Position numbers and translations under genes: made by a program. The notes under the pieces are model-generated. The model did not search any database, was not told where the DNA came from, and saw nothing but the letters and a program-made list of their open reading frames with translations. Source: an uncultured Planctomycetia bacterium (GTDB taxonomy: Bacteria > Omnitrophota > Gorgyraeia > Taenaricolales > CAZCCH01). Taken from it: a stretch of DNA of 54,105 nt. Positions 1-15,328 of the stretch are shown one piece after another (within the stretch, counting starts at the first letter, position 1; every line of letters begins with the position of its first letter). The stretch covers positions 1 to 54,105 of the forward strand of contig CAZCCH010000001.1 of NCBI GenBank assembly GCA_964497315.1. Direction: 5' to 3'.

Positions 1-3000
1 CATCAGGGTATTCTTTATCTAGGTGATGTCTTCTTGCTTGAGTGTAAAGGTCTAATGCCTTAGAACGCTTAAGCATTTTCTCAAGCTCTTCCCTTTCTGT
101 TGGGTCTACTAAGTCTTCATGTTCTAGGAAGCCTTCAAGGTTTTCTCTTGCTAGAGGATAATTACCACCTTCAAAGAACCTAATACCTTCTTCTCTTAGG
201 CTTAAGAGTCTTGCTTTGGCAAGCTCCTGTTCAAATGCCTTCCTACCGCTTCCTTTAAAGAGACCTTCTGCAGTTTCTAATACTGCTACAGCTTGAGTGC
301 ATTGGTTTTGTTCCAGAAGTTGAGTGGCTCTTTGATTAGCCACTCTGCAGGATAGGTTTACTAGCTTTTTTTGCAGTGCTTCATCTGGCTTGGGATGTGT
401 CATAAAAGCTAGGTTGTATTCTTCTAGGGCTTCTTCTAGTTGTCCTTTTGCTTCTAAGGAACGTGCCTTTTGGGTATGCTCTCTTGCTCCATCTAAGGCA
501 GGTTTACGGGAGTCGGTAAGTTGTTTTTGCCATTGGGCTTTTGTTACGATTTCTCTGGATTCGCAAACTGCTCTACTAGCTATAGGTGTTATACTTACGC
601 AGTCACCCTTAATATCGATAACTGAATGGTTTGGCACATTACCATTTAAAGAAGCACGAACAACACCATCTTCTGCTCTTATATCTTGATACCTTTTATA
701 TCCTGGTTTATCCCACCAGTCTACCCGTCTTATATAGTAACGGCCGTTTTGTTTTTGTAAGATAATACTTGCAAAATCTCCTACCCTTTTGCCGTCTTTG
801 CTACTAAAAACTCTAAGCGTCCTGCCAAGTAAACTCTTCGGTGCCCCTTTAGGTAAAATAAGATTATCTATATAAACTATAGGTGCATCTACATGTTTAC
901 TGACAGTATCTTTAGTAGTAACATATAAAAGCTTACCTGAGCCATCCCTTGCTGCAATATAATAATCAACATTGTCCGACCTTAAGAAATCTCCTTCTGG
1001 TCCTGTTATGGCAATTGGCATATTATTTGTTTTGCCATTTTTGGTAGGGCTTTTTTCATAAGCTGTCCAAATGGCACTACTATCGCGCCAAGGAGACCTA
1101 ACGCTATAGTTATGTGTTATGCCTCCAGATGTACTAAACATATTTTTCTTAAGTACATTTCTGGCTCTTGCAGCAGCATACCTACCATCAGGCAAAATTA
1201 CTACTTTACTAGCAGTGTCATTGTAGCCTTTTGCAAGAGAATCTAATGTCTTTCGGGTATCAAGATGAGGATATGGTCTTTCTGTAAGTAAGGCAATTAA
1301 TTCTTTATATGTCTTAGGACCTTGCTCTAATTGTTCCCATAAAAAGGTATTAAGTTCATCATGGGTTAACTGTCTAGGGTTATTCCAAATTTCTATATCC
1401 GTACTGATATCCGCACCGATGCGGGATATATATTTTTTATCTTTTGTAAGCCTCCAAATTTGTCTTGGTAAGGCATTTTCTTCTGCTTCAGCAGAAAATT
1501 TACCTTTCCTTGTTCTTAAGCGATACACACCATGGCTATAATCTCTTCTGAAATGGACTTCTTTAAGCCTTCCACCATTAAAAAAGAAACTCAGGCTTAA
1601 TGGAAACCCTCTAATTCTTCTTATTATGTTGCGAAGGGATACCCTGTAAGGCAAAATTGATTTTATAAGATCTCCTTCGGACAAGGAAATATTTTCAAAA
1701 TAGCTTCTTTCTTGCTTGCTATCAACCTGTACATTTCTAAGGCAGCAATCAATTACATTGCCCTGTGCATCTCTTTGAACAATAAGAGAGAAAGGATTTT
1801 CTGTGCAAACAGTGCCACCTATTACTTCAAACAGCATAATAGGCCAACCATTGTCCCTTACTATTCTTAGCCTATCCCCAGGGAGGAAGTAATTCCTTAA
1901 ATCTACACCGGTGCGTTTTTGGTTTACAAAGATTCTAGGCTCATCAAGCACTATTTCTTCACCCAGATACCCATACTTGCCACCTCCTATATGCACTATA
2001 TCTTGCCTTTTACTAAGTGCTTCTAGAACTAGCTCTACTCTTTCCAGCCCATCAAAACCTACGCCAACTGCCTCAGTTAATTCATGAGCAGTTTTTGGTT
2101 TTTCTTCTAAGCTCTCTGAAACAAAAACTTCTAACTCACTTTGAGGTAAATCATCAATACCTGCTAATTTATCTGTCCATTTAAACCAAAAAAGTTTATA
2201 TCCTAGTGCAAGTCTTTCGGAGATGGTTAAAGAATGAGGTTTAAAATCTTTTATATGGTTGAACTCTCGAGTTCCTTCATCATACCAAACATTGAATATC
2301 GCTCTTACAGGTAATAGATTGTTACCCAATTTAAATACCCTAGCTGCCTTACAAAGCTTACCTCTATGTTTATAAGTGAACATTTCAACTAAAGCCTTAT
2401 CTCCTTTTTTAAGGCCTCGTGTAATACCATTCATAGCGCCTGTTTTCTTTTCTGTTGCAAGTTCTTGTAGTATTACATTTGCGCGTTCATTGGTAACTGT
2501 AATAACTAAAGGCTCAGGTGGCGGCTCTTTAGCATCCCAATTAGTAAATCTATTAATCGCTTCTTGGTCTGGGTAGTATATCGAATCGACTTCTGAATCT
2601 AAGCGGTGATAGGCTGTTCCGTAAAATTTTTCTTCTCCTGTAGGCCCTCTCCCATAAACTTTGAACCTTCTTGTATCTTTTGTAGTTGGCACACTCTCCA
2701 AAACAGCTTCAGGCTCTGTAATTCCCTCCTCAGGTGTATATTGAGCTTCTATTTTGGTGGAACCTGTCCCCTCTCTTAGCACTATAACACCTTTTTTGCC
2801 TATCCTTCTAGCGCCTCTCTTACCCAAAAGGGCAGTCACCTCTGGTAAAACCACCACTCTAAAAATACCCTTAATCTTTATCTGAAACCTCAACCATAAT
2901 CTAAGTAAGCGCCTACTTCCAGCGTGTTTATCTGAACAAGATATATCTTCTGGACCAAAAACTCTATCAAAATACTGTGTTTCTTCATTCCAAGTGGCAA

Positions 3001-4555
3001 ATCCTACAGGTTTACCTTTTTTTCTAAAATAGACGAGAATACCTCTTTGCGCCTTTCCTTCTTTATTTTTAAACCAAATTACCTCTACCCATACCCTCCT
3101 TCTTGATTCTTTTGTCTTTCTGCCTTTGTAATGTGTAAATTTATCACCTACGCAGTATCTTCTGTTTTTGCTATCAGCTCCGAAAACTACAATATCTCCA
3201 CTGCTAAGCAACGGCACCGACAATAGCTTAGCACTAGGCTTTTTATGTGTCCTTGCAAATTCTTTCATGCATTCTAAATCATTTGGTTTTTTAGGTTTTG
3301 TCATGAAAAAGCCTTTAAAACCAGCACGTAATTTCTTATTTTCTCTCTCGAATGCTTCTTTCTTGTCATCTCCCTGAGCTTTAAATGCAAGGTGTTCTTC
3401 TTCTGACTTTTCAAGTTCACCTTGTTCACCTTCAAGGTTTACAAATTCAAATGTGATATCTTGGAATTCTGGTATGTAGGTTTGAAGGAATTCTCCTTTT
3501 AGGTTTGTATCAAAGTGGGTCTTGGCTGCTTTTCTTATTGAGATTGTAAGGCCTTTGGGTCTCTTTCTTGTTTGCATATCTTGAAGTAAACCAGCAAAGG
3601 CTTCATCTTCAAGAGCCAATAAGCCTGGGCAAAGATTAAAATCAAAGCTTCTCTCATGAGCATGTGTTACTTTATTAAAAGCCTTGACTCTTCTTTTTAC
3701 TTCAGCCTTTGGCATACTCATAAGCCTTAAGGCAGTATCGTAATCATCTCCTGGGTATATACCTAATTCATCACGTAGATGTGTAAGATTAGATTTGATT
3801 TGACTTGTGCTTGGGAGGTTTTGAGGTTGGGTTAGGGCTTCTTCTGGTTGGGTGAGGGTTTCAGAGAATCTTGCTTTTTCTGGTCTGCCGGTAACCTCTC
3901 TTCTAAAACGTTCAACTAATCTATTGCCGAGAAATTCACTAATGGTAACCTTGGGCTTATCTAGATGAGGGGAAAGATATAATTTTTCTATCATCACGCG
4001 GTGTTTTCTGTAGATGTCCCTGGTAATTTTATGAATTATCTTTTTAGCTGCAAGTTCTTTTGGTGTCTTTCGTGGTTCAGACGGTTTCCATCTTTCGGGT
4101 TTGAGATAAACAAGTACTTCTATATCAGAAGGGTAAGGGTTTTTGTGATAAGATAAGGCATCGCCATGAGACATTTTTTTTGGAAATAGTCCTAACCGCA
4201 TTGTGCCTTTGGCAAAACTTCCCACCACATAAACAGGAACAACTTCTAATTTCCAACCCTCAACTTCTGTTATCGCACAGCAGCGCTCATAAAATTCATT
4301 AAGCGCTTCTTGATAAGCCTGCAAGGCTTGTTTTCTACCTTCTTCATCTATTGCCTTTCCAAATCTATTAAAATGCTCGCTGTTTTCTCCAAGCTTACCA
4401 GCCAATTCTTCTGCAAACCTGCTGTTTCTAGTTTTATCAGGTCTAAGTGTATCTCTAGAAAAATCAGCCAAGGCAAATTCCGACACTACAGCTGAAAACA
4501 AAAAAGTCCTCAGTAATACTATTGCTATTATTTTGGTAATAAAGTGTTTTTTCAT
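1..4555 (-). CDS. Giant hypothetical protein, >1518 aa, 3'-partial (C-terminus beyond the left window edge); absent from the supplied ORF track
   Basis: Plus-strand triplets in the frame pos = 2 mod 3 contain no tta/cta/tca from 2 to 4555 (checked line by line). The minus strand is therefore open for 1518 codons. ATG = cat at 4553-4555; the nearest in-frame upstream stop is TAA at 4616-4618, with no ATG between. The N-terminus MKKHFITKIIAIVLLRTFLFSAVVSEFALA is hydrophobic (signal peptide or anchor). It is probably missing from the track because no stop lies inside the window. Confidence 0.85.
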   Translation of the reverse strand, partial: MKKHFITKIIAIVLLRTFLFSAVVSEFALADFSRDTLRPDKTRNSRFAEELAGKLGENSEHFNRFGKAIDEEGRKQALQAYQEALNEFYERCCAITEVEGWKLEVVPVYVVGSFAKGTMRLGLFPKKMSHGDALSYHKNPYPSDIEVLVYLKPERWKPSEPRKTPKELAAKKIIHKITRDIYRKHRVMIEKLYLSPHLDKPKVTISEFLGNRLVERFRREVTGRPEKARFSETLTQPEEALTQPQNLPSTSQIKSNLTHLRDELGIYPGDDYDTALRLMSMPKAEVKRRVKAFNKVTHAHERSFDFNLCPGLLALEDEAFAGLLQDMQTRKRPKGLTISIRKAAKTHFDTNLKGEFLQTYIPEFQDITFEFVNLEGEQGELEKSEEEHLAFKAQGDDKKEAFERENKKLRAGFKGFFMTKPKKPNDLECMKEFARTHKKPSAKLLSVPLLSSGDIVVFGADSKNRRYCVGDKFTHYKGRKTKESRRRVWVEVIWFKNKEGKAQRGILVYFRKKGKPVGFATWNEETQYFDRVFGPEDISCSDKHAGSRRLLRLWLRFQIKIKGIFRVVVLPEVTALLGKRGARRIGKKGVIVLREGTGSTKIEAQYTPEEGITEPEAVLESVPTTKDTRRFKVYGRGPTGEEKFYGTAYHRLDSEVDSIYYPDQEAINRFTNWDAKEPPPEPLVITVTNERANVILQELATEKKTGAMNGITRGLKKGDKALVEMFTYKHRGKLCKAARVFKLGNNLLPVRAIFNVWYDEGTREFNHIKDFKPHSLTISERLALGYKLFWFKWTDKLAGIDDLPQSELEVFVSESLEEKPKTAHELTEAVGVGFDGLERVELVLEALSKRQDIVHIGGGKYGYLGEEIVLDEPRIFVNQKRTGVDLRNYFLPGDRLRIVRDNGWPIMLFEVIGGTVCTENPFSLIVQRDAQGNVIDCCLRNVQVDSKQERSYFENISLSEGDLIKSILPYRVSLRNIIRRIRGFPLSLSFFFNGGRLKEVHFRRDYSHGVYRLRTRKGKFSAEAEENALPRQIWRLTKDKKYISRIGADISTDIEIWNNPRQLTHDELNTFLWEQLEQGPKTYKELIALLTERPYPHLDTRKTLDSLAKGYNDTASKVVILPDGRYAAARARNVLKKNMFSTSGGITHNYSVRSPWRDSSAIWTAYEKSPTKNGKTNNMPIAITGPEGDFLRSDNVDYYIAARDGSGKLLYVTTKDTVSKHVDAPIVYIDNLILPKGAPKSLLGRTLRVFSSKDGKRVGDFASIILQKQNGRYYIRRVDWWDKPGYKRYQDIRAEDGVVRASLNGNVPNHSVIDIKGDCVSITPIASRAVCESREIVTKAQWQKQLTDSRKPALDGAREHTQKARSLEAKGQLEEALEEYNLAFMTHPKPDEALQKKLVNLSCRVANQRATQLLEQNQCTQAVAVLETAEGLFKGSGRKAFEQELAKARLLSLREEGIRFFEGGNYPLARENLEGFLEHEDLVDPTEREELEKMLKRSKALDLYTQARRHHLDKEYPD

Positions 4556-4567
4556 TTCTTTTCTACA

Positions 4568-4605
4568 ATAAAAAAGCTGCCTAAATTTAACATATTTTGG
4601 CAGCC
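4568..4605 (-). terminator. Intrinsic-terminator-like hairpin plus U6; putative riboswitch expression platform
   Basis: Minus-strand RNA reads GCUGCC-A-AAAU-AUGUUAA-AUUU-A-GGCAGC followed by UUUUUUAUUG. The stem arms are 4576-4586 and 4594-4604, and the U-tract is the plus-strand A-run 4570-4575. It ends about 15 nt before the ATG at 4555. The left arm overlaps the 3' strand of the aptamer. Confidence 0.6.
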
Positions 4606-4668
4606 TTGCAATCCCTTAGGATCAATGGCTTTGCGTCCCCACCTTACGATAAGTTTGCCCTTTTCTAA
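4598..4668 (-). promoter_or_regulatory. c-di-GMP-I (GEMM-I)-like riboswitch aptamer in the 5' leader of the giant ORF
   Basis: Minus-strand RNA: AGAAAAGGGCAAACUUAUCGUAAGGUGGGGACGCAAAGCCAUUGAUCCUAAGGGAUUGCAAGGCUGCC. Elements: GGGCAAAC (4653-4660), a 6-bp stem capped by the GNRA tetraloop GUAA (4644-4647), GGGACGCAAAGCC (4627-4639), a second imperfect hairpin, and a closing GGCUGCC. Block identity and the 13-nt spacing match my memory of the V. cholerae Vc2 aptamer. Confidence 0.7.
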
Positions 4669-4673
4669 CTACA

Positions 4674-4679
4674 ATTATA
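4674..4679 (-). promoter_or_regulatory. Candidate -10 box for the riboswitch/giant-ORF transcript
   Basis: Perfect TATAAT on the minus strand, 7 nt upstream of the first aptamer nucleotide. There is no convincing -35 (ACAAAA at 17-nt spacing). Confidence 0.4.
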
Positions 4680-4846: not shown

Positions 4847-6421
4847 TTACTTAATGATATTCTCTTTTTTTAGTAATTTTTTCTTAGCTTTGAGGCCTTT
4901 TGAGAAACCACCCAATGTGCCATCTGAGCGGATTACGCGGTGGCAGGGGATAATACCAGGAAGGGGATTTTTGTTTAAGGCATTGCCTACTGCCCTTACT
5001 GCATCAGGGTTGCCTATTTGTTTAGCTACCCATTTATAAGAGCATGTCTGGCCTTTAGGGACTTTACTAACTGCCTTATATACCTTAAGCTGAAACTCTG
5101 TGCAGGTTTTAAGAAGCAGTTGTTTTCTTTTTAAACCAATACCAGGAATTTGATCTAAAATTGATTTCTTTGTTAATTTGCCTCTTAACACATGATGATA
5201 GGAAATAGCAAATCTGTGTGCCTCATCTCTTATTCTCTGGATTAACTGCAATGCCTTTGAATTTCTCTTTAATATGATTGGAGTCTTTTTCTCTAAAACA
5301 TGTAATCTCTCTAGCTTTTTTGCAATTCCAACAACAGGAATCTTTTTAAGACCTATAGATTTTAAGGCCTTGGTTGCTACTGAGACATGAGACCTGCCAC
5401 CATCAATAAGTATTAAATCAGGTAAAGGCTTATGCTCTTCTAATAATCTTTTATACCTTCTTGTTACGATTTCTTTTATCATTGCATAGTCATCAATACC
5501 TTCAACAGTTTTTATCTTAAAGCGTTTGTAATTTTGTTTATCGGCTAACAAATCAAAAAAACTTACCATGGAACCAACTGCCTCAGAACCAAACACATTG
5601 GAAACATCAAATGCCTCTATCCTCATTGGAGTTTTTGCTAAGCCCAACACCATCCTCAACTCTTCTAGTCTTTGTCTGCGGGTTATGGTTTCAAGATTAA
5701 AACCTTCAAAAGTAGCCTTCCCCTCGGAGACTGAGGCAAGTGCCTTTATCTGATCCCTAAGCCTGGCTGCTTCTTCATAGTCTTTCTTAGAAGATGCCTC
5801 TTTCATCCTAAAAGTCAAAGCCTTAACTAATTGTGTTTTCTTACCCTCTAAAAATAAACAAGCATCTTTTAATATCCTAGCGTATTCTTTTTTAGAAATC
5901 CTACCAACGCAAGGTGCAAGGCATTGACCAATATGATAATTTAAACAAGCAGTTTTTGGAAAAGTCTTACAGGTCCTCAAAGGAAAAATTTTTCTCATTA
6001 TAGCAAGCGCTTCTTTTAATAATTTAGCATTTGTATAACGCCCATAATATATAGAACCATCTTTTTTTCTTTGCCTCGCTATAAAAATCCTTGGGAATTT
6101 TTCCCTTTTCGTTACCTTAAGTAATGGATAACGCTTATCATCCTTTAAATCTATATTAAATTTAGGTCTATAGCGCTTTATCAGGCTCCATTCCAATAAC
6201 AGTGCCTCTGCCTCGGAACCCGTCGGTATACAACTAAAATCTTTAATATTACTAATTAAAATTCGGGTTTTGGTATCTTGAATATTCTTTTTAAAATAGG
6301 ACAAAACCCTTTTCTTTAAGGATAAGGCCTTTCCTATGTAAATAACCTTACCAGCCTTATCCTTCATCAAATAAACACCAGGAGAGTCAGGTAATTTTTT
6401 TAGTTTCTTTCTTATATCCAT
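4847..6421 (-). CDS. uvrC: Excinuclease ABC subunit C (UvrC) with the C-terminal HhH region replaced by an MGMT/Ogt-type alkyltransferase domain
   Basis: GIY-YIG N-terminus (PGVYLMKDKAGKVIYIGKA); UVR motif (DYEEAARLRDQIKAL); endonuclease region (IEAFDVSN, HRFAISYH); one HhH (IPGIGLKRKQLL). The last 85 aa (TEFQLKVYKAV...PCHRVIRSDGTLGGF) are an MGMT DNA-binding domain with the PCHR active site. Confidence 0.85.
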   Translation of the reverse strand: MDIRKKLKKLPDSPGVYLMKDKAGKVIYIGKALSLKKRVLSYFKKNIQDTKTRILISNIKDFSCIPTGSEAEALLLEWSLIKRYRPKFNIDLKDDKRYPLLKVTKREKFPRIFIARQRKKDGSIYYGRYTNAKLLKEALAIMRKIFPLRTCKTFPKTACLNYHIGQCLAPCVGRISKKEYARILKDACLFLEGKKTQLVKALTFRMKEASSKKDYEEAARLRDQIKALASVSEGKATFEGFNLETITRRQRLEELRMVLGLAKTPMRIEAFDVSNVFGSEAVGSMVSFFDLLADKQNYKRFKIKTVEGIDDYAMIKEIVTRRYKRLLEEHKPLPDLILIDGGRSHVSVATKALKSIGLKKIPVVGIAKKLERLHVLEKKTPIILKRNSKALQLIQRIRDEAHRFAISYHHVLRGKLTKKSILDQIPGIGLKRKQLLLKTCTEFQLKVYKAVSKVPKGQTCSYKWVAKQIGNPDAVRAVGNALNKNPLPGIIPCHRVIRSDGTLGGFSKGLKAKKKLLKKENIIK

Positions 6422-8426: not shown

Positions 8427-9356
8427 TCAATTTCCTTTCCTTAATAAAGCTACTTCTCTCCTTATTATAACTCCAATCTTATCCGATTTACTACGAAATA
8501 TTAAATTAGCGGCATGCGCAAGCGGCATATATCTGGTAGTTTTACCGTTTATCTGACAAATTAAATCCCCTTCTTTAAACCCGCTTTCTGAAGCAGGGGT
8601 TGCCCTTACAACTTCAGATATTGTTAAACCTTCTGGTTGCATTGATAAGACCATGCCTAGACGTTTTGTTCTTCCAGATTTTAAAGCTGTCATTAATCTA
8701 GCGTACCAGGGTTTTTTAATAACCGGTAGCGTCAGGTTTTTTTGAATAGTAGCCACAACTGCCGTATTTGGCTCTCCCATCAAAAACCATGCTGCTTCAT
8801 CTGGCTCCATATAATAAAGGGAAGAATCCCATGCCTTTACTATTGAATCTCCTTTTTTAATACCTTCAAAATCTGCTGGAGAATCCTCTCTTACAGAGGT
8901 AATCTTCTGTATATTATCGGTCTTTTTAAGCTTTATTCCAAGCTGTTCATATAACATTGTACTTGCCTCAGAAGAGCTAAGTTTAAGCTTTAGCCTCTTT
9001 TGCTCATCCATTGCCTTCATTATAGCATATTGTGCTTGTTTAAGCTCAGGATTCATCTGGTTTGCCTTGTAATAAAAACCTATGGCTTTATCTAAATCCT
9101 TTTCTTCAAATGCCCTATCTCCTAAATAAAGGTAATTCTGCTCTTGTGCCTCAAAAAATATTTCCTCAATCGCATATTTGGGGATAATCACCTCACCCCT
9201 ATATGTAGATAAAACTATTCTATCGTAGTGCTGTTCAACCACTAGTCCCTTTCTCATTTGGTCAGATTTCATATAAACACGATCTGCTAAGCCTTGAGAA
9301 GTATTAAATATTAAAAAACCGCAAAAAATTAATAATAGGCATGCAAGCCTTTTCAT
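8427..9356 (-). CDS. Secreted TPR/PDZ-domain protein
   Basis: N-terminal signal-like segment; TPR-like LGDRAFEEKDLDKAIGFYYKANQMNPE; two PDZ-like segments (ADFEGIKKGDSIVKA, ASESGFKEGDLICQINGKTT). Overlaps the upstream gene by 4 nt. Confidence 0.55.
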   Translation of the reverse strand: MKRLACLLLIFCGFLIFNTSQGLADRVYMKSDQMRKGLVVEQHYDRIVLSTYRGEVIIPKYAIEEIFFEAQEQNYLYLGDRAFEEKDLDKAIGFYYKANQMNPELKQAQYAIMKAMDEQKRLKLKLSSSEASTMLYEQLGIKLKKTDNIQKITSVREDSPADFEGIKKGDSIVKAWDSSLYYMEPDEAAWFLMGEPNTAVVATIQKNLTLPVIKKPWYARLMTALKSGRTKRLGMVLSMQPEGLTISEVVRATPASESGFKEGDLICQINGKTTRYMPLAHAANLIFRSKSDKIGVIIRREVALLRKGN

Positions 9357-10327
9357 TTGCTTTTCCTTATTAGCCTTTTGTAACTCAAATAATGGTGTAT
9401 GGCCACTCCTGCAAAACTAGGGTGGTTAATATAGGTATCCACTAGTTTTTTTAGTTCTGTCTCCATATGAGCTATGCTCTTTCCCCCGAAAGTAACATGT
9501 TCATGATATAAATTCGCTTTTGTCTCCTGGCCAATATAAACCTTCTTGCCTTTTTTGGAGGCATAGTCCATCTCACCTTTTATAAGTTTAATTGAGCCAT
9601 TTTCTCCTTCTGCAAAATTCCGGTAGTCCATAACTACAATCGCATCAATTACATCTAACATATGAAAACAGGCTGGGGCATATTTGCCCTTCCACTCAAC
9701 CGACATATTTGGGTCGTCGTCATACCAAAATGGAATATCTGCAAAAAATTTTAATTTTATTCCGCGCTCCTTTATCAATTGCATTATCTTCTCATTCATA
9801 TCTAGGTATTCCCTTAAGATTTGAGCTTTATTTTCCTCCCATGCCTTCTTGAAAAGGTAGGGTTCAACATCACTATGCAATCCATCAAAGCGCTCATGTG
9901 GCTGGGACTCGAAGTTAAACATCAAAACCCCTTCAGCCCAATCCAATGCCCTCTTATGAAACCTCTCAAATGCCCAGCGGGGGTCTCCTGCTAAGGCATG
10001 TACTGAGATATTTCTCCTGTGGGCCCTTGAATTAAACTTCCTACATATAGGAGTCATTTTCCCTCTTACATTATATGCCGAATAAAAAAGAAGGTCTATA
10101 TTTTTTTTCTGACAAAAATCTAGGAGTCCTTCTGTGGCCTCCTTGTCTTCTATGACCTTCGCATCCCATACCCACATAGCCCTTGAAGGCTCTTCTTGAG
10201 CATGGTCTTTTTGTGAGTAGCTAACTTCAGCAAAAAGGCCTGTTGTGAATAAAAAAAATAGGCCGCAAAGAAAAATTCTAAAAAGCTTCGATATCAAAGC
10301 ATTTAGGCTTTTTATATTTTTCTTCAC
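9353..10327 (-). CDS. Secreted glycoside-hydrolase-like (TIM-barrel-like) protein, paralog of the central domain of the 818-aa protein
   Basis: Signal-like N-terminus. Shares blocks with ORF 12872..15328: MWVWD/LWVWK, HALAGDPRWAFERFH/EALTGTPTWALEKFH, FDGLHSDVEPYLF/MDGISLDVEPYLT, VVMDY/ALMDY. Confidence 0.5.
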   Translation of the reverse strand: MKKNIKSLNALISKLFRIFLCGLFFLFTTGLFAEVSYSQKDHAQEEPSRAMWVWDAKVIEDKEATEGLLDFCQKKNIDLLFYSAYNVRGKMTPICRKFNSRAHRRNISVHALAGDPRWAFERFHKRALDWAEGVLMFNFESQPHERFDGLHSDVEPYLFKKAWEENKAQILREYLDMNEKIMQLIKERGIKLKFFADIPFWYDDDPNMSVEWKGKYAPACFHMLDVIDAIVVMDYRNFAEGENGSIKLIKGEMDYASKKGKKVYIGQETKANLYHEHVTFGGKSIAHMETELKKLVDTYINHPSFAGVAIHHYLSYKRLIRKSK

Positions 10328-10361
10328 AGCCTATTCCCTTTGTGTTTTCATACTAACTCTT

Positions 10362-11042
10362 TTACTCTAAAGCAATGTCATCTATGTAGACAATGCCCTC
10401 ACCTGCTCCCTCTGGGAAACAATCAGCCTCAAAGCTGACTGAGATAGAGGCAAATTTCGCCGTATCAATGAAGAAATCATCCAGAGGTACTATTGCCTTC
10501 TGCCAGGTATCGGTAATCTTGCCTGCTGGAAGATAGATCCCTATCTCTTCGCTCTTTACAGAATCACCGACTTTATCCCAATGGGCATCAGCTGCGCCTA
10601 TCATAAAGTTTGTTTTTCCCTCAATACCCTTAACCCAAAGGGTTATTGAGCGATAGGCACTTGCATCAAAATACGACCTTTGCATTTCTTCATCCTCTGA
10701 TATTCCCGGCGTAGGAGAAGTAGTGCGTATTTTCTTAAGAAGGGTGTAATAACCACACCAGCCACCCATATCGAATGGCCCACCTTCATTTCTTTTATCA
10801 AATCTAAGCATCAAAGCTGTGGTTGGTCTTCCCTCTTTGTGGTCCTGCCTGAATGCCATCATTGCCTTTGAGGGTGCTTTTACATAGACATTGGTCTTAC
10901 CACCCAAAGAGTTTGTAATACTACCTGATTCAAAATCATCCACAACTACTTTCTCATTCTGGGCGTATGCCTCGCATATTAAAGCACTGGTTAAAGCAAC
11001 TCCTGCCACTGCTACAATTGCAATCTTGGTTAATCCTTTCAT
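10362..11042 (-). CDS. Secreted single-module CBM-like beta-sandwich protein (CBM11/CIA30-like, tentative)
   Basis: Signal peptide ending AYAQ; AGGAGG SD 8 nt upstream. Conserved blocks: DDFE, GGWCGYYTLL, FDAS.Y..IT.WVKG, GDSVKSEEI..YLPAGKIT..WQKA.VPL, VYIDDI. Confidence 0.5.
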   Translation of the reverse strand: MKGLTKIAIVAVAGVALTSALICEAYAQNEKVVVDDFESGSITNSLGGKTNVYVKAPSKAMMAFRQDHKEGRPTTALMLRFDKRNEGGPFDMGGWCGYYTLLKKIRTTSPTPGISEDEEMQRSYFDASAYRSITLWVKGIEGKTNFMIGAADAHWDKVGDSVKSEEIGIYLPAGKITDTWQKAIVPLDDFFIDTAKFASISVSFEADCFPEGAGEGIVYIDDIALE

Positions 11043-11059
11043 ACCTTCACCTCCTTGTT

Positions 11060-11677
11060 TTATTCAAATTTTAAATCATCTATATAAACTGTTCCCTTAC
11101 TACCACCCCCAGGGAAACATTCGGTCTCAAAACATATGGCTAGCGATGCGAGTTCTTTATGCTCTAAGAAAAATACCTCTAGAGGAACCGTTGCCTTCTG
11201 CCACTGAGTAGTGATTTTTCCTCCTGGCAGATATTTTTCGATATTTTCTGACTTTACGGAATCCCCAAGCCCTTCCCAGTGTTTATCGGCAAGGCCCACT
11301 TTAAAGCTCTCCTCCCCCAATGCACCTTTAACCTGAAAAGTTATATTTTTAAATCCTGAGGCATCAAAATACCTGTTTCCGTTACGCATCAGGGTATAAT
11401 AACCACACCAACCGCCATGGCTGAAAGGACCACCTTCACTTTTCTTATCGTATTTAATCATTAAGGCCTTACCCTTATCGCCAAAGTATTCCTTATCTGT
11501 CCTGAGAGCCAAAGAACGCGAAGGTTCTCTTTCGTATGTGCTTGAGCGGCCACCTATCAAATTGCCTGCTTTTTCGAAATTATCCACCAAAAGCTCTTCT
11601 GCGTAACCTAGAGATAATGGATAAATAATAACTGACAGTAAAATTATACAAACAAGAATTGTTTTCACTTTCACCAT
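11060..11677 (-). CDS. Secreted single-module CBM-like paralog
   Basis: Same blocks (GGWCGYYTLM, FDASGFKNITFQVKG, GDSVKSENIEKYLPGGKITTQWQKATVPL, VYIDDL). I place the start at the ATG at 11677 (GGAGG 7 nt upstream, TAATG overlap with the upstream stop) rather than the TTG at 11683 in the track. Confidence 0.5.
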   Translation of the reverse strand: MVKVKTILVCIILLSVIIYPLSLGYAEELLVDNFEKAGNLIGGRSSTYEREPSRSLALRTDKEYFGDKGKALMIKYDKKSEGGPFSHGGWCGYYTLMRNGNRYFDASGFKNITFQVKGALGEESFKVGLADKHWEGLGDSVKSENIEKYLPGGKITTQWQKATVPLEVFFLEHKELASLAICFETECFPGGGSKGTVYIDDLKFE

Positions 11678-12867
11678 TACCAATCCTCCAATAATTCTTC
11701 TTCAGTTTTAAGTGTAAATGTTAAATCATCTATATATACTATGCCTTTTTGTTTCGTATTAAAGTTTATTACAAAAGAACCCATCTGCGAAAAGTTAAGT
11801 TTTCCAAAATCTTCAAGCGGGATTATAGCCTCTTGCCATTGAGTTGTAACGCCTTCGGGTAAGTACTTTTTTATTTTGCCTGCCTTTAGGGAATCTCCTA
11901 TATTAATCCAGTTCTTATCGGCCATGCCTATCTCAAACGTCTCGCCACCTTTTTCACCCTTTATGAAAAAGGATGCACTTTTGTATCTTGATAAATCATA
12001 ATATTCACCGTCTACTTGGTTGAGCAAAGTAAAATAACCACACCAACCTGTTGACTGTTTATCATAATTTAATTTCAGGCTGCGGCCTTCACTGCCATAA
12101 TGCACATCCTCAACTCTCAACGCCCTGCAAACAGAAGGAAGTTTTTTATACGTATTGGTTTTCCTACCCAAAAGATTAAGGTCACTATGGTCAAAATTAT
12201 CCAAAAGTAAATATCCTTTGTTGTAAATCTCTTCTTCTCTGTTGGCAAGGTATTCGGTATGAAATCTTATATTGTCTATCCAGAATTCCCCACGGCCTAA
12301 TTCGTTGCAAAGAAAAACTATGCTATATATTTGCGATAAATCTGGCCCAAAAAAATCTGCCAGTGGAATAACAGCCTGTTGCCATTCAGTTGTAACACCA
12401 GAAGGTAGATACCTATAAATGGAGCCTATCATTACCGCATCTTCTCTTCTGTTGGAAATGAGGTCGTTTATTCCTATTTCAAAAGTTTCACCGCCTTCTT
12501 TTCCTTTTATCATAAATGTCATGGTTGTGTATTTTGATAAATCTGCAAGAAAGATCATATAGGTTCCACAAAAAGATTTTTCATCCTTGCGCCAATACAT
12601 CATCTTAATGGATGTGGGCACCTCTCCTTCTTTTAGTTCTTCGCCTTCATAATAAACCTTATTATCAAGATAAGCGCCGTATTTGGAAGGTTTAAGTGCA
12701 AAACCTCCTATTTTACCGCGATGGCCAAATGTCCTTTCTTGTTCAGTCAGGGCATCCTTGGAAATCTCAGGTAACTGATCTATACTAGCCATCTCGGCAT
12801 AACTTAACGGCAGGTGGCAAAAACTAAAGATTAAGCTACATATGATAAAAGTAAAAAGAACTCTCAT
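11677..12867 (-). CDS. Secreted protein with two tandem CBM-like modules
   Basis: The module occurs twice (FCGTYMIF...WIDNIRF and GWCGYFTLL...VYIDDLTF). I prefer the start at the ATG at 12867 (MRVLFTFIICSL..., GGAG 7 nt upstream) over the track start at 12894, which overlaps the upstream gene and lacks an SD. Confidence 0.5.
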   Translation of the reverse strand: MRVLFTFIICSLIFSFCHLPLSYAEMASIDQLPEISKDALTEQERTFGHRGKIGGFALKPSKYGAYLDNKVYYEGEELKEGEVPTSIKMMYWRKDEKSFCGTYMIFLADLSKYTTMTFMIKGKEGGETFEIGINDLISNRREDAVMIGSIYRYLPSGVTTEWQQAVIPLADFFGPDLSQIYSIVFLCNELGRGEFWIDNIRFHTEYLANREEEIYNKGYLLLDNFDHSDLNLLGRKTNTYKKLPSVCRALRVEDVHYGSEGRSLKLNYDKQSTGWCGYFTLLNQVDGEYYDLSRYKSASFFIKGEKGGETFEIGMADKNWINIGDSLKAGKIKKYLPEGVTTQWQEAIIPLEDFGKLNFSQMGSFVINFNTKQKGIVYIDDLTFTLKTEEELLEDW

Positions 12868-12871
12868 CTTG

Positions 12872-15328
12872 TTACTCCAATACCAATATTCCAAAAGTTG
12901 TAGGATCTCCCCAGACCCTGTTTACAGAACTAGAAAGTAAACATTTCTGTGGCGTAGCCTTATTATCACAATCACTCGGATCTACGCTAATACCAAGCTT
13001 CATGCCTTTAGCGAAAGAGGCGGGTATTGCTTCTTGTGCCCTACCTAATACTTTAGCTCCAGAAACTGGTTTAATGCCTGGTTTTTGTTTTATGGTTGAA
13101 AACAGAAGTTCCGCTGGAATTTTTACTTCCATTATATATCCGGTATCTGTCTTGCTGGCTGCTATATCAATAAGCTTCTTATAATCTAGGCCTAGGTCTG
13201 GCACCCAAACATACACCTCAGGCTTTAAATCTTTGAAATTACCCGGAGAAAATCCAAACTGAAAATCATCATAGTTGTTTATAGACTCATTGTAATCTCT
13301 CTTTAGCTCAACATCAAGCCAGAATTCAATGTGGTCTCCCTCCCACATTTGGTCTCGCTTTTTTTCCTGGACCACACTGTTGTCTGTAACATCAAAGGCA
13401 AAGTAAAGATTTTCTTCATCCCACATGCTATAGGTAGCAGCGCTCAAATCTTCAGCTCCTCCCCAGGCAGCTTTCCCATACACTGCATTTTGTTTTTTAT
13501 CAATTTTGTACGGCTTGGTGAGATCCCAATCATCTAGCTTTCCATCAATGGCAAGAGTTTCTTTTGATGCCAAACTAGCTATTTCATAAATTTTCTTAGG
13601 TCTTGGTTTAAGTGGTATGTTTTTAGCGCGGGGTAAGAGTTTATAAGAATAATAGCAATGTATAGCAAATCCTTCAAAGGCTGGATTTCTCGAAAAGGCC
13701 CTTTCAACTACTTTCAGTCTTTTTTCCATCTCTTCCCAACCTTCTTCAAAGAATGTAAACCTTCTCTCGCCCTGATTAAGCCTTATTAAATCCTGTGTTT
13801 CAACACCTATGCTTACTTGTTTGTTTGCCTGTTTTGCCATTTCTAAATGGGCTTTTCCTTTCTCAATAACCTTCTTGGGATCATCGTGATAATCCATCAG
13901 GGCGATATAATCCACTAGTTCCAAAATCCTATTTTCAAATCTCCCCTCATCTATATCAGCATAAAATGTTGAAATGGCAACGCCAAAGCGAAAATCTTGA
14001 TTATAGCTGTCAATAAGGCTACGCAGTTTTTCAAGGAGCACAATATAATCTGCTTTGATTCTTTCTCTGTCTGTTTGCCATTCTGTAGTTAGGTATGGCT
14101 CTACATCTAGAGAAATGCCATCCATTCTTTCGTTTTTAGGTCTGTCTTTGTTAAACTTCAAAAACGCCTCTACCCACCTACTGCAATCCTTATGAAATTT
14201 CTCAAGGGCCCATGTTGGGGTCCCTGTAAGTGCCTCTATTTTTAAACCTCTTTTATGCGAAGAGACCAAAAATTCAGCTAATCTTTTACAGTATTCTTTT
14301 TCTTGCTCAGGGTCAAATTCTCCAAAATATAGATATATATATTCAATAGCTGCCCGTTCACACAAGTCAAAGAGATCTTTTCTTGCCTTTAGGTTATTTA
14401 TAGGATCTATCTTCCAAACCCAAAGAGAACGCGGATGTTTTGGCTTAAGTTTTGCCTGAGGAAGATTATACGCTTCTTTCTCTTGGACTTCAGCATCAAC
14501 CTTAAAGGACATATCATCTATAAAAATTTTACCCTTACCTCCATAGCGAAACCATAAAACAACAGAACCCATATCACGCATATCCAATTCTGCCCCTACC
14601 CTTGAAAGCGGAATCTTTACCTCTTGCCATTGAGTAGTTACCCCTAAGGGTAAAAATGAATTTACATCACCTGCATAAATAGCATCTATTTGAAGCTCTT
14701 GCATATCTGAATCAGCTAGGCCTATGTCAAACTTCTCTTGACCCTTTTCACCTTTAACCCAAAAACTTAAGGTATTGTTATCGGAAACATCAAGACCATC
14801 TAATAATGTATACCATCCAGCCCAACCTGCCTCTTTTTTATAATCTATAACAAGTCCTTTACCAGTTTCCCCTCTTCTATGCTTCCTTGATTTAGATATA
14901 ATAGCATATGAGGGCCTCTTTGCCCAGGTACCCTGATATGTCCCCAGGGCTGTACTCCTTTGATAAAAAACACCTGAGGTCATTCCTTTATCAAAAGTAT
15001 CAACAATTATTCCTGAAGATACCTTTGCATCTGCAGAAAGCCCTGTTTGTTCAGGTTTAACCGCTTGCGATGTAACTGCCTGTATGCTTGTTTTAGCAAC
15101 GTCTAATATGCCAGAACTGGCCTTCTTGAAAGGAATATCAAACAATTTAGAAGATTTTAAGCTTATAGGTTTAATATTTTGCTTAAGCACATCAAAGATT
15201 GCGCCTCCAGAGAGAAGATCCATAATAAGACCTATTGTTACAATTAATACTGTCAAAATAGCTGCACCTGTGAAAACAGGATGTTTTTTTAGTTTATCAA
15301 TTGCATTTTCTGTCTTTTTCTTTCCCAT
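12872..15328 (-). CDS. Membrane-anchored multidomain protein: CBM-like module + GH-like TIM-barrel-like domain + C-terminal CBM9/DOMON-like domain
   Basis: N-terminal TM (FTGAAILTVLIVTIGLIM); CBM-like block (GWAGWYTLL...IFIDDMSF); central domain paralogous to ORF 9353..10327. The C-terminus IDGKLDDWD...AWGGAEDLSA...WDEENLYFAFDVTDN...WEGDHIEFWLD is typical of CBM9-like domains. Confidence 0.55.
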   Translation of the reverse strand: MGKKKTENAIDKLKKHPVFTGAAILTVLIVTIGLIMDLLSGGAIFDVLKQNIKPISLKSSKLFDIPFKKASSGILDVAKTSIQAVTSQAVKPEQTGLSADAKVSSGIIVDTFDKGMTSGVFYQRSTALGTYQGTWAKRPSYAIISKSRKHRRGETGKGLVIDYKKEAGWAGWYTLLDGLDVSDNNTLSFWVKGEKGQEKFDIGLADSDMQELQIDAIYAGDVNSFLPLGVTTQWQEVKIPLSRVGAELDMRDMGSVVLWFRYGGKGKIFIDDMSFKVDAEVQEKEAYNLPQAKLKPKHPRSLWVWKIDPINNLKARKDLFDLCERAAIEYIYLYFGEFDPEQEKEYCKRLAEFLVSSHKRGLKIEALTGTPTWALEKFHKDCSRWVEAFLKFNKDRPKNERMDGISLDVEPYLTTEWQTDRERIKADYIVLLEKLRSLIDSYNQDFRFGVAISTFYADIDEGRFENRILELVDYIALMDYHDDPKKVIEKGKAHLEMAKQANKQVSIGVETQDLIRLNQGERRFTFFEEGWEEMEKRLKVVERAFSRNPAFEGFAIHCYYSYKLLPRAKNIPLKPRPKKIYEIASLASKETLAIDGKLDDWDLTKPYKIDKKQNAVYGKAAWGGAEDLSAATYSMWDEENLYFAFDVTDNSVVQEKKRDQMWEGDHIEFWLDVELKRDYNESINNYDDFQFGFSPGNFKDLKPEVYVWVPDLGLDYKKLIDIAASKTDTGYIMEVKIPAELLFSTIKQKPGIKPVSGAKVLGRAQEAIPASFAKGMKLGISVDPSDCDNKATPQKCLLSSSVNRVWGDPTTFGILVLE

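What the first reader, a model, noticed from the sequence alone, without database searches (positions are those of the whole stretch)
1..4555. Unlisted giant ORF (>1518 aa, still open at the window edge) of unrecognisable function
The longest coding region in the window is not in the ORF track. It is lysine/arginine-rich, unlike repeat-type adhesins. It has a hydrophobic N-terminus.

It contains two segments that read like winged-helix modules (PKTAHELTEAVGVGFDGLERVELVLEALSKRQDIVHIGGGKYGY and GPKTYKELIALLTERPYPHLDTRKTLDSLAKGYND...ILPDGRYA). Several basic beta-rich modules follow, and the visible C-terminal part (about 2-500) is TPR-like.

I cannot place it in any family by eye. Its expression appears to be gated by a c-di-GMP riboswitch. 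A riboswitch-controlled giant protein mixing export-like and nucleic-acid-binding-like features is the best candidate for something undescribed here.
Basis: partly seen in the sequence, partly recalled or inferred. Interest (0 to 1): 0.7.

Follow-up and report, generated by a model that had tools for sequence, protein, structure and literature searches.

The report
Riboswitch-gated orphan giant exported protein
An uncultured Omnitrophota bacterium carries a very large (at least 1,987 amino acids), apparently exported protein with no relatives in any database; it sits behind a c-di-GMP-sensing RNA switch and differs drastically between otherwise near-identical strains, which suggests a signal-controlled surface or host-contact factor of unknown biochemistry.

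Summary
The ORF is real. It lies on the minus strand (ATG at 4555) and runs off the window's left edge after 1,518 codons; another assembly extends it to at least 1,987 codons without reaching a stop. A full-length c-di-GMP-I-type aptamer (4595-4668) lies 40 nt upstream. Its 3' strand is shared with an intrinsic terminator, which predicts a ligand-ON transcription switch. The host is Omnitrophota. The protein is an orphan: only 7 hits among 1.84 billion representative proteins, and no Pfam, NCBIfam, PADLOC, PDB, phage or plasmid match. New findings: (i) one N-terminal signal-peptide-like segment and no other hydrophobic helix; (ii) an N-terminal module (aa ~45-225) with Pol-beta nucleotidyltransferase motifs, shared with a few proteins (one labelled Omnitrophica), including 2,160- and 4,075-aa multi-enzyme giants; (iii) the two "winged-helix-like" segments are a genuine internal repeat, but winged-helix and TPR identities are unconfirmed; (iv) a strain 99.6% identical in flanking DNA carries an allele that falls to 32-71% amino-acid identity from residue ~372, with saturated synonymous sites. 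Best reading: a c-di-GMP-induced exported surface or host-contact protein with a strain-variable body. The regulatory logic is known; the protein is new.

The parts
4674..4679 (-). Perfect -10 hexamer TATAAT, ending 6 nt upstream of the first aptamer base; no good -35. Candidate dedicated promoter.
   Evidence: Read directly from the sequence. The consensus scan did not call it because the -35 is poor. Weak evidence.
4595..4668 (-). c-di-GMP-I-type riboswitch aptamer (Rfam clan CL00126; best model RF03167 'c-di-GMP-I-GGC').
   Evidence: 64.2 bits against a gathering score of 59, E 6e-13, model positions 1-80 of 80, GNRA loop GUAA present. The DNA is identical in L004. It has A where the GGC model consensus has G (GACGCAAAGCC). 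Other RF03167 hits in unrelated genomes also have A there, so the 'GGC' label is not evidence of an altered ligand.
4567..4607 (-). Intrinsic terminator: stem AAGGCUGCC / GGCAGCUUU with an inner 4-bp helix, then a U-run. Its 5' arm is the 3' strand of the aptamer's closing helices.
   Evidence: The hairpin alone folds at -14.2 kcal/mol. In the full leader the MFE forms the terminator and loses the AGCC:GGCU pairing that the isolated aptamer forms. The simple terminator scan missed it because its outer loop exceeds that scan's 3-8 nt loop limit.
2..4555 (-). 5' part (1,518 codons) of the giant gene. It continues beyond the window: at least 1,539 codons in L001 and at least 1,987 in L004.
   Evidence: Codon usage is native-like (RSCU correlation 0.83 with neighbouring genes, which range 0.80-0.96; GC 0.385).
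4466..4555 (-). Signal-peptide-like N-terminus, aa 1-30: MKKH, a hydrophobic core, then A-L-A before D31.
   Evidence: It is the only hydrophobic segment. The A-x-A motif is read from the sequence. The same layout occurs in P0005, P0006 and L095. No dedicated predictor was available.
3881..4423 (-). N-terminal module, aa ~45-225, with Pol-beta-type nucleotidyltransferase motifs: VVGSFAKG at aa 110-117 and PSDIEV at aa 142-147.
   Evidence: Five distant relatives match only this region (E 3.5e-7 to 4.8e-4). Gly of hG[GS] and the first Asp of DxD/E are invariant in 6 of 6. NTP_transf_2 is sub-threshold (16.7 bits here; 20.9 against a cutoff of 21 in P0003). AF2 with 6 sequences gives pLDDT 76.4, pTM 0.75 and an alpha-beta-alpha-beta-alpha-beta order. 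Foldseek top hits are MNT, OAS1, OAS2, the 1wot minimal NTase, Cid1 and Pla1, but all at E >= 0.12.
3443..3865 (-). Linker/helical region aa 231-371, conserved between alleles (93-100% amino-acid identity).
794..3442 (-). Strain-variable body, aa ~372-1254: 32-71% amino-acid identity to the L004 allele, dS about 0.6 to over 2, dN/dS 0.14-0.79. Sharp 5' boundary at gene nt ~1115.
   Evidence: A third version exists as fragment P0002 (43% identity).
1955..2152 (-).
   Evidence: hhalign probability 92% between the two copies; alignment A3. Fold identity unconfirmed.
1160..1372 (-). Internal repeat copy 2 (aa 1062-1132), the second 'winged-helix-like' segment.
2..793 (-). It continues at least 469 aa further in L004.
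   Evidence: TPR_14 at aa 1359-1396 scores only 18.8 bits against a 23.5 cutoff.

Best explanation
The gene encodes a very large (at least 1,987 aa) exported protein of an uncultured Omnitrophota bacterium, and it is transcribed only when intracellular c-di-GMP is high. Proposed mechanism. Transcription starts just upstream of the aptamer. Without ligand, the 3' strand of the aptamer pairs instead with downstream sequence to form an intrinsic terminator 12 nt before the ATG, and transcription stops. When c-di-GMP is bound, the aptamer holds that strand, the terminator cannot form, and the polymerase reads into the gene. The product has a cleavable-type signal peptide and no other membrane segment, so it is exported across the inner membrane. 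It consists of a conserved N-terminal Pol-beta-nucleotidyltransferase-like 'head', a ~900-aa body that has been swapped between strains by recombination and is maintained as deeply diverged alleles, and a conserved C-terminal region (only sub-threshold TPR similarity; secondary structure not modelled) whose end has not been seen. I read the variable body as the specificity or contact part of a surface or host/prey-interaction protein (an adhesin or effector scaffold), deployed when c-di-GMP signals the attached state. Shown: the ORF, the aptamer match, the alternative pairing, the orphan status, the host phylum, the allele structure and the internal repeat. Inferred: the ligand, the ON polarity, export, the NTase fold and the host-contact role.
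For: 1. The aptamer is above the Rfam gathering score and full length.
2. Aptamer and terminator folds are mutually exclusive.
3. The same architecture (aptamer plus an adjacent terminator, ON switch, large surface adhesin) is experimentally established for Bc2/cap in Bacillus thuringiensis (PMC4933901).
4. There is a single N-terminal hydrophobic segment with a positive n-region and an A-L-A motif. Relatives of the head module have similar N-termini.
5. The host is Omnitrophota. Giant, mostly exported or membrane-associated proteins are characteristic of this phylum and have been linked to c-di-GMP through adjacent PilZ genes and GGDEF domains (bioRxiv 10.1101/2023.11.21.568195; bioRxiv 10.64898/2026.06.07.730766).
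6. The head module recurs inside two multi-enzyme giants: P0004 with Endonuclease_NS, methyltransferase, PP2C and HAD domains, and P0005 with GNAT. P0005 lies beside a SurA/Rotamase_2 gene; a Rotamase_2 isomerase is reported next to Omnitrophota giant genes.
7. Allele structure: flanks differ by 0.4% and gene nt 1-839 are identical, then divergence becomes saturating, with dS around 1 and dN/dS below 1. This is typical of loci under frequency-dependent or host-driven selection that exchange by recombination.
8. Codon usage is native and the context is chromosomal housekeeping genes. There is no phage or plasmid relative.
Against: 1. No ligand binding, termination or expression data exist.
2. 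The signal peptide was judged by eye and by hydropathy only, and its core contains Lys8 and Arg16.
3. No adhesin-type repeat (Ig, cadherin, RTX, beta-helix), toxin or cell-wall hydrolase domain was detected in the 1,987 aa.
4. The net basic charge is atypical for classical adhesins.
5. The NTase assignment rests on three sub-threshold lines of evidence: Pfam below cutoff, Foldseek E >= 0.12, and motifs. The third catalytic carboxylate is not conserved in the family.
6. The gene's 3' end and downstream neighbours are unknown.
7. One contig carries the alternative allele with two frameshifting deletions, so the gene may be dispensable in some populations.
8. No c-di-GMP synthase, phosphodiesterase or PilZ gene is present in the 54 kb.
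Confidence: 0.45

Rival explanations
1. It is a self-surface or matrix structural protein (for example an envelope or biofilm scaffold) induced by c-di-GMP, with no role in host or prey contact. Allelic diversity would then reflect escape from phages or grazers that use it as a receptor.
For: It rests on the same export and riboswitch evidence. c-di-GMP classically induces matrix components. Strong allele divergence with dN/dS below 1 fits receptor-escape loci as well. No enzymatic effector domain was found.
Against: There are no repeats typical of matrix or S-layer proteins. The N-terminal NTase-like head is shared with multi-enzyme giants, which looks more effector-like than structural. Omnitrophota are described as host-dependent.
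Confidence: 0.22
2. It is a polymorphic toxin or effector-delivery protein. Its active toxin domain and cognate immunity gene lie in the unseen 3' part, and the visible region is the delivery scaffold.
For: It is large and exported, with a conserved N-terminal part and recombination-swapped distal sequence. The head module is shared with P0004, which carries a secreted-type non-specific endonuclease and other enzymes. A weak EAD7 'effector-associated domain' hit (E 0.29) is at noise level only.
Against: In polymorphic toxins the variable part is the extreme C-terminal tip. Here the variable part is central, and the C-terminal region seen so far is the better-conserved part. No RHS/YD, PT-HINT, filamentous-haemagglutinin or other pre-toxin domains were detected.
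Confidence: 0.15
3. It is a membrane-anchored cytoplasmic nucleic-acid-binding protein, for example a defence or chromosome-associated factor.
For: It is basic (net +45). Two repeated segments have a helix-helix-wing-like pattern, with weak PqqD and TFIIE_beta hits. NTase domains are common in defence systems. Nielsen and Lui report that 46% of Omnitrophota long proteins are TM-only with cytoplasmic bulk.
Against: There is no PADLOC hit. No winged-helix model passes threshold, and there is no similarity to a bona fide winged helix of the same genome. The positive n-region ahead of the single hydrophobic segment predicts an N-in orientation, which places the rest of the chain outside the cytoplasm (inference from the positive-inside rule). 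PqqD-type winged helices bind peptides, not DNA.
Confidence: 0.1
4. It is not a functional gene: a decaying pseudogene, an assembly artefact, or a chimeric contig that creates the apparent allele.
For: L216 carries the alternative allele with a 2-nt and a 1-nt deletion. Several assemblies break at the same points. There are no homologs.
Against: The window-type allele is identical and uninterrupted in at least five independent assemblies from JGI and ENA. A 1,987-codon frame is open in L004. dN/dS is below 1 along the whole length. Codon usage is native. A conserved riboswitch and terminator lie immediately upstream. L004's flanks carry their own 15 SNPs, so it is a distinct strain and not a join of the window strain with foreign DNA.
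Confidence: 0.04

Closest known systems
Bc2 c-di-GMP-I riboswitch upstream of the collagen adhesion protein gene cap (and cbpA) in Bacillus thuringiensis (PMC4933901; PMC7423583)
   Same: A c-di-GMP-I-type aptamer is directly followed by an intrinsic terminator next to the ORF. The switch is an anti-termination 'ON' type. The regulated gene encodes a large exported surface protein.
   Different: The host is a diderm Omnitrophota bacterium, not a Firmicute. The regulated protein has no collagen-binding, LPXTG or any other known adhesin domain. Nothing here has been tested experimentally.
Omnitrophota giant proteins (West-Roberts et al. 2023, bioRxiv 10.1101/2023.11.21.568195; Nielsen and Lui 2026, bioRxiv 10.64898/2026.06.07.730766)
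   Same: Same phylum. It is unusually long and has a signal-peptide-type N-terminus; the 'SP-only' class is 8.6% of long proteins in the 2026 catalogue. Large stretches have no recognisable domain. The literature links these proteins to c-di-GMP through PilZ and GGDEF.
   Different: The visible length (at least 1,987 aa) is far below the 10,000-aa threshold those studies use. It has no SecA-DEAD, C39/S8 peptidase, dockerin/discoidin or multiple-TM features. It is not preceded by a type II/IV secretion-like locus; UvrC, MurJ and other genes lie upstream instead. Control here is by a riboswitch, and the word 'riboswitch' does not occur in the main text of either paper.
Pol-beta superfamily nucleotidyltransferases (minimal NTase/MNT, OAS/cGAS-type, Cid1/PAP-type; Pfam NTP_transf_2 PF01909, Polbeta PF18765)
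   Same: The hG[GS] motif and the [DE]x[DE] motif sit on successive predicted strands. The predicted secondary-structure order is alpha-beta-alpha-beta-alpha-beta. These families top the Foldseek list.
   Different: There is a ~25-aa insertion between the two motifs. The third carboxylate is not conserved across the module family. No model passes its threshold. The module sits behind a signal peptide at the head of a giant protein.
Hypervariable or recombining surface-protein loci (a general class; from my own knowledge, for example pilin, capsule or O-antigen and receptor-binding protein loci)
   Same: Near-identical flanks (0.4% divergence) surround alleles that are almost unalignable at the DNA level. 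The boundary is sharp. Synonymous divergence is deep, indicating old alleles exchanged by recombination.
   Different: The replaced tract is at least 3.5 kb inside a single gene and its 3' boundary is not seen. Only two full alleles and one fragment are known.

Membership tests
c-di-GMP-I riboswitch (Rfam clan CL00126: RF01051 / RF03167) | Covariance-model score at or above the curated gathering score, over the full length of the model | tested here: met
   RF03167: 64.2 bits against 59, positions 1-80 of 80, E 6e-13. A lower-scoring hit from the same clan was suppressed by the tool, so the RF01051 score was not seen.
c-di-GMP-I riboswitch (Rfam clan CL00126: RF01051 / RF03167) | Sits in the 5' leader of a gene on the same strand, with an expression platform that competes with the aptamer | tested here: met
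   The aptamer ends 40 nt before the ATG. The terminator arm AAGGCUGCC is shared with the aptamer's 3' strand.
c-di-GMP-I riboswitch (Rfam clan CL00126: RF01051 / RF03167) | Ligand-contacting nucleotides, which decide canonical versus 'GGC' variant identity | tested here: inconclusive
   The sequence reads GACGCAAAGCC where the RF03167 consensus reads GACGCGAAGCC. Other RF03167 hits also have A there. Mapping this position to A47 of Vc2 rests on my recollection, because Weinberg 2017 is not held.
c-di-GMP-I riboswitch (Rfam clan CL00126: RF01051 / RF03167) | Binds c-di-GMP and changes transcription read-through | not testable with these tools
   Needs in-line probing or ITC and a termination assay.
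Pol-beta-like nucleotidyltransferase superfamily | hG[GS] motif followed by [DE]h[DE]h on the next strand | tested here: met
   VVGSFAKG and PSDIEV in the window protein. The Gly and the first Asp are invariant in 6 of 6 family members, and the second acidic residue is present in 6 of 6.
Pol-beta-like nucleotidyltransferase superfamily | Third catalytic carboxylate on a later strand | tested here: inconclusive
   The aligned strand has E in the window protein and D in P0003, but H, Q or a hydrophobic residue in the others. I had no access to model coordinates to check the geometry.
Pol-beta-like nucleotidyltransferase superfamily | Significant match to a curated family model or to a solved NTase structure | tested here: not met
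   NTP_transf_2 scores 16.7 bits (cutoff 21) for the window module and 20.9 for P0003. A PDB profile search gave only noise. Foldseek's best E is 0.12, although NTases dominate the top ranks.
Omnitrophota giant proteins (Archaeovorin or Dockerin types of West-Roberts et al.) | Encoded in an Omnitrophota genome | tested here: met
   The best TopA matches (55-61% identity) are all Omnitrophota MAGs. Head-module relative P0006 is named Candidatus Omnitrophica.
Omnitrophota giant proteins (Archaeovorin or Dockerin types of West-Roberts et al.) | Characteristic domains (SecA-DEAD, C39/S8 peptidase, dockerin/discoidin, many TM helices) | tested here: not met
   None were found in the 1,987 visible residues. 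The C-terminus has not been seen.
Omnitrophota giant proteins (Archaeovorin or Dockerin types of West-Roberts et al.) | Conserved neighbourhood: a type II/IV secretion-like locus upstream and PilZ genes downstream | tested here: inconclusive
   Upstream is UvrC-Ogt, MurJ, HAMP, PDZ and CBM proteins, with no secretion locus. Only a prepilin peptidase lies ~39 kb away. The downstream region is not recoverable.
   The best matches are PqqD at E 0.023 (2 of 4 copies) and TFIIE_beta at 0.06, all below cutoffs. The PDB profile search gave noise. hhalign against the AcrB C-terminal DeoR winged helix gave probability 0.5%.
   There is a single TPR_14 stretch at 18.8 bits (cutoff 23.5) in the window allele and 12.9 bits in L004. 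The allele profile had no PDB match.
Known anti-phage defence proteins (PADLOC) | Match to any PADLOC model | tested here: not met
   No hit for the four window segments. One noise-level hit (HEC-07, E 0.007, 12.9 bits) falls in the L004 C-terminal part.

The most novel reading that the evidence does not exclude
The N-terminal module defines a new, Omnitrophota-restricted family of exported nucleotidyltransferase-like domains. On this reading the gene is a c-di-GMP-triggered, strain-specific contact weapon or attachment device of an episymbiotic nanobacterium: the conserved enzymatic head would be presented or delivered by a body whose specificity is exchanged between strains by recombination. 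That would be the first riboswitch-controlled member of the Omnitrophota giant-protein arsenal, and it would give a direct RNA-level link between c-di-GMP and host attack.
Probability: 0.15. Interest if true: 0.75.

Novelty: new variant of a known kind. Interest (0 to 1): 0.5.

Why it matters
Omnitrophota are abundant, uncultured, probably host-dependent nanobacteria. Their oversized exported proteins are thought to mediate attack on or attachment to other cells, but how these proteins are regulated is unknown. This locus provides a concrete, testable regulatory input: a c-di-GMP aptamer with a simple terminator platform. It also provides a compact model protein of about 2,000 aa or more, rather than 30,000-150,000 aa. 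That protein carries a module shared with much larger multi-enzyme giants, and its central body is replaced between strains that are 99.6% identical elsewhere. If the head is an active exported nucleotidyltransferase, that would be a new effector chemistry for this phylum. If it is not, the locus is still a clean natural example of an ORFan under strong population-level diversification.

Tried and rejected
1. Homolog searches. The word-indexed search of 5.8 billion proteins found nothing with the 1,518-aa query or with the L004 C-terminal 487 aa. With the head-module profile it returned only P0006 and P0008.

2. Extending the gene. An exact DNA pattern and protein patterns found nothing in the GTDB genomes. 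An exact 3'-end pattern and an allele-profile scan found nothing in the JGI metagenome contigs. Only the exact-protein look-up of the neighbouring UvrC gene helped, giving L004 with 1,987 codons. The stop codon was never reached.

3. Structure. A single-sequence AF2 model of aa 31-400 was unusable (pLDDT 41.6).

4. PDB sequence and profile searches gave nothing or noise: the N-terminal 400 aa, the head profile, the whole allele profile and the repeat profile.

5. NCBIfam and PADLOC gave only noise.

6. Conserved riboswitch association: rejected. The other carriers of the head module have no riboswitch.

8. Altered ligand inferred from the 'GGC' model name: rejected as unsupported.

9. Phage or plasmid origin: rejected (native codon usage).

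10. A paralog within the window: none found.

11. Diversity-generating retroelement or hypermutation as the cause of the variability: rejected. Divergence spans about 3 kb with saturated synonymous sites, and no reverse-transcriptase domain was found among the window's annotated ORFs.

12. Internal repeats beyond the one pair: none found by BLAST or by block-wise hhalign.

Full report
**Observation**

The finding is real, but the gene lies on the minus strand. Translating window 4600 to 1 on that strand gives an uninterrupted frame. It starts at the ATG at 4555 (MKKHFITK...) and is still open at base 2, which is 1,518 codons. No in-frame ATG, GTG or TTG lies between the upstream terminator and this ATG (sequence). 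The ORF lister omits it only because it does not list ORFs that run off an end. The next longest ORF is 1,280 aa.

Composition is K 8.8%, R 8.0%, E 8.5%, D 5.3%, with a net charge of +45. A 19-residue hydropathy scan finds one strongly hydrophobic stretch, at aa 4-31. Nothing else is comparable in this allele or in the 1,987-aa allele.

**Riboswitch**

Rfam gives one hit above the gathering score in the whole window. It is RF03167 (c-di-GMP-I-GGC) at 4595-4668 on the minus strand: 64.2 bits against a cutoff of 59, covering model positions 1-80 of 80. It lies 40 nt upstream of the ATG.

Directly 3' of the aptamer, the sequence AAGGCUGCC-(17 nt)-GGCAGCUUU-UUUAUU forms a hairpin followed by a U-run. 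When the whole leader is folded, the minimum-energy structure contains this hairpin and loses the AGCC:GGCU helix that closes the isolated aptamer. Aptamer and terminator therefore compete for the same strand. From this I infer a ligand-ON anti-termination switch. The same logic has been shown experimentally for the Bc2 riboswitch ahead of the collagen adhesin gene cap in Bacillus thuringiensis (PMC4933901). A perfect TATAAT ends 6 nt before the aptamer (4674-4679), but there is no good -35.

The 'GGC' label should not be over-read. The window RNA has A where that model's consensus has G (GACGCAAAGCC). Aptamers from other phyla with the same core are split between RF01051 and RF03167. Two further RF03167 hits also carry A at that position. 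The paper that defines the variant is not held, so mapping this position to the intercalating adenine of the Vc2 structure rests on my memory.

**Context and host**

Every ORF with a Pfam hit in the 54 kb lies on the minus strand, and the set is chromosomal housekeeping:
- UvrC, MurJ, Lnt and two RND pumps with their adaptor and outer-membrane partners.
- Lipid A and LPS core genes, TopA, DprA and a XerC-like recombinase.
- The aro, leu and ilv genes, and alanine racemase.

GC content and codon usage of the giant gene match its neighbours. The best TopA matches among 185,579 species genomes are all Omnitrophota MAGs, at only 55-61% identity. The host is therefore an Omnitrophota lineage without a close reference genome. 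No GGDEF, EAL, HD-GYP or PilZ gene lies in the window.

**Extension and alleles**

An exact-protein look-up of the adjacent UvrC gene returned eight contigs from JGI, ENA and Logan assemblies.
- Five of them (L001, L002, L003, L005, L006) are identical to the window over the shared part of the gene.
- Several end at nearly the same places: aa 1518 in L002 and L003, as in the window itself, and aa 1539 in L001.
- L004 continues to 1,987 codons and is still open. L001's 21 extra residues match L004's continuation.

L004 belongs to a different strain. Its 3,644 nt upstream differ from L001 at 15 positions, or 0.4%. Within the gene, the comparison with the window allele runs as follows:
- nt 1-839 are identical.
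- nt 840-1104 carry 13 SNPs.
- From nt ~1115 the sequences become almost unalignable at the DNA level (53-69% identity).
- Identity returns to about 86% in the C-terminal region.

Codon-wise, residues ~372-1254 are 32-71% identical, with dS from about 0.6 to over 2 (saturated) and dN/dS of 0.14-0.79. Residues 1255-1539 are 71-96% identical, with dS of 0.26-1.0. This is old, selectively maintained divergence placed into a near-identical genomic background by recombination. It is not hypermutation or decay.

A third version exists as the 147-aa fragment P0002, which is 43% identical.

One contig, L216, is seen in two samples. It carries the L004-type allele with a 2-nt and a 1-nt deletion that take the frame out and bring it back 651 nt later. 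This is either real inactivation of that allele in one population or an assembly error. The window-type allele shows no such defect in any assembly.

**Orphan status**

- Pfam, NCBIfam and PADLOC give nothing above threshold.
- PDB sequence and profile searches give nothing.
- Phage and plasmid collections give nothing.
- The word-indexed search of 5.8 billion proteins gives nothing.
- An exhaustive phmmer search of aa 1-1200 against 1.84 billion cluster representatives gives seven hits. Two are fragments of other alleles of this same gene. The other five match only aa ~23-229.

**The N-terminal module**

Four of those five proteins were examined with Pfam and context look-ups (the fifth, P0007, is a 187-aa protein for which neither gave anything):
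- P0003 (460 aa) has near-threshold NTP_transf_2 and Polbeta matches.
- P0004 (4,075 aa) carries Endonuclease_NS, methyltransferase, PP2C and HAD domains.
- P0005 (2,160 aa) has a GNAT domain and lies next to a SurA/Rotamase_2 gene.
- P0006 (385 aa) is named Candidatus Omnitrophica by NCBI. It has the same layout of a hydrophobic N-terminus followed by the module.

L095 is a stand-alone ortholog of P0006.

The six-sequence alignment conserves a helix (YQxAxNxF), then hG[GS], LG[LI]FP, and P[SP]D[ILM][DE][VI]. The G-S and D-x-D/E motifs, in that order, are the signature of Pol-beta-type nucleotidyltransferases, here with a longer spacer than usual.

AlphaFold2 run on this shallow alignment gives a usable model (pLDDT 76.4, pTM 0.75) with an alpha-beta-alpha-beta-alpha-beta order. 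Foldseek against the PDB finds nothing significant. Its top ranks are nonetheless the MNT antitoxin, OAS1, OAS2, a minimal NTase, OASL, Cid1, GlnE-N and Pla1, at E values from 0.12 to 2.7. The viral library adds nothing.

Three weak lines of evidence agree, so I rate the NTase fold likely (about 70%). Catalytic competence is open, because the third carboxylate is not conserved in the family. None of the other carriers of the module has a riboswitch.

**The rest of the protein**

Block-wise hhalign on the allele alignment finds exactly one internal repeat. It pairs aa ~802-867 with aa ~1062-1132 (probability 92%, E 6e-7).

Their fold is not established:
- The best Pfam matches are PqqD (E 0.023, in 2 of 4 copies) and TFIIE_beta (E 0.06).
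- A PDB profile search gives noise.
- Comparison with the bona fide DeoR winged helix at the C-terminus of the window's own AcrB paralog gives probability 0.5%.

The 'TPR-like' C-terminal part has a single sub-threshold TPR_14 stretch. No structure model could be made for these regions.

**Interpretation**

Omnitrophota are known for very long proteins, most of them membrane-associated or exported, that are thought to act on host or prey cells. The literature already notes PilZ genes and GGDEF domains around them. Neither giant-protein paper contains the words riboswitch or nucleotidyltransferase, and only three held papers mention both Omnitrophota and riboswitch.

I therefore read this locus as a c-di-GMP-induced exported surface or host-contact protein with three parts:
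- a conserved NTase-like head;
- a recombination-swapped specificity body;
- a conserved C-terminal region (only a sub-threshold TPR match) whose end is unknown.

The regulatory design is a known kind. The protein itself, its head module family and the allele structure are new.

The main rivals are a self-surface or matrix protein diversifying under phage pressure, a polymorphic-toxin-like protein whose toxin lies in the unseen 3' part, and a cytoplasmic nucleic-acid-binding protein. A pseudogene or assembly artefact is very unlikely, given five identical independent assemblies, purifying selection along the whole length and native codon usage.

**Verdict**

I score interest at 0.5. This is a genuinely orphan, riboswitch-gated, hypervariable large exported protein in a poorly known phylum, and its regulatory input can be tested directly. 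Its biochemical function, its full length and its neighbours remain unknown.

Noticed in passing
window 4847-6421 (-): The UvrC homolog (GIY-YIG, UVR, RNase H-like endonuclease domains) ends in an Ogt/MGMT DNA_binding_1 domain with an intact PCHR active-site motif instead of the usual helix-hairpin-helix tail. It looks like a fusion of nucleotide-excision repair and alkyl-transfer functions.
   Followed up: partly
window 20567-24409 (-): This AcrB-type RND transporter (1,280 aa) carries a ~130-aa Pro/Lys-rich linker and a C-terminal DeoR/HTH_24 winged helix. A DNA-binding-type domain on an efflux pump is unusual.
   Followed up: partly
window 1-54105: Every ORF with a Pfam hit lies on the minus strand, more than 40 genes in a row with many overlapping or abutting ends. 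GC skew is negative throughout.
   Followed up: no
window 9353-15328 (-): Three consecutive proteins with CBM30, CBM11 and CBM9 carbohydrate-binding modules are followed by two proteins with no Pfam hit, a PDZ protein and a small HAMP protein. This may be a surface glycan-binding cluster a few kb upstream of the giant gene.
   Followed up: no
window 31677-35851 (-): Two unusual LPS-gene fusions: GT4 with GT9 (703 aa), and an LpxL-type lipid A acyltransferase with an ELM1-like domain (688 aa).
   Followed up: no
window 47724-49139 (-): A 471-aa ORF with no Pfam match is embedded between ilvC and ilvN in the branched-chain amino-acid cluster.
   Followed up: no
L091 149-12376 (P0004, 4,075 aa): This giant multi-enzyme protein (endonuclease, methyltransferases, PP2C, HAD and the NTase-like module) has its domains separated by a recurring RSE[AMV]R motif, at least 14 times. 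The motif may mark processing sites or linkers.
   Followed up: no
L216 836 and 1485 (= L004 5437 and 6088): The alternative allele carries a 2-nt deletion in GCGC and a 1-nt deletion in an A5 run, 651 nt apart, which together restore the frame. The same contig is reported from two samples.
   Followed up: yes
L114 6477-6729 (-); L104 1391-2308 (+): Tandem c-di-GMP aptamers occur in unrelated MAGs. In L114 one is called RF01051 and the other RF03167 although both have the canonical GACGCAAAGC core, so the Rfam GGC model captures many canonical-looking aptamers.
   Followed up: partly
L092 14558-16216 (-): A SurA_N/Rotamase_2 peptidyl-prolyl isomerase gene lies directly downstream of the 2,160-aa P0005. 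A Rotamase_2 isomerase is the kind of neighbour West-Roberts et al. report next to Omnitrophota giant genes.
   Followed up: no
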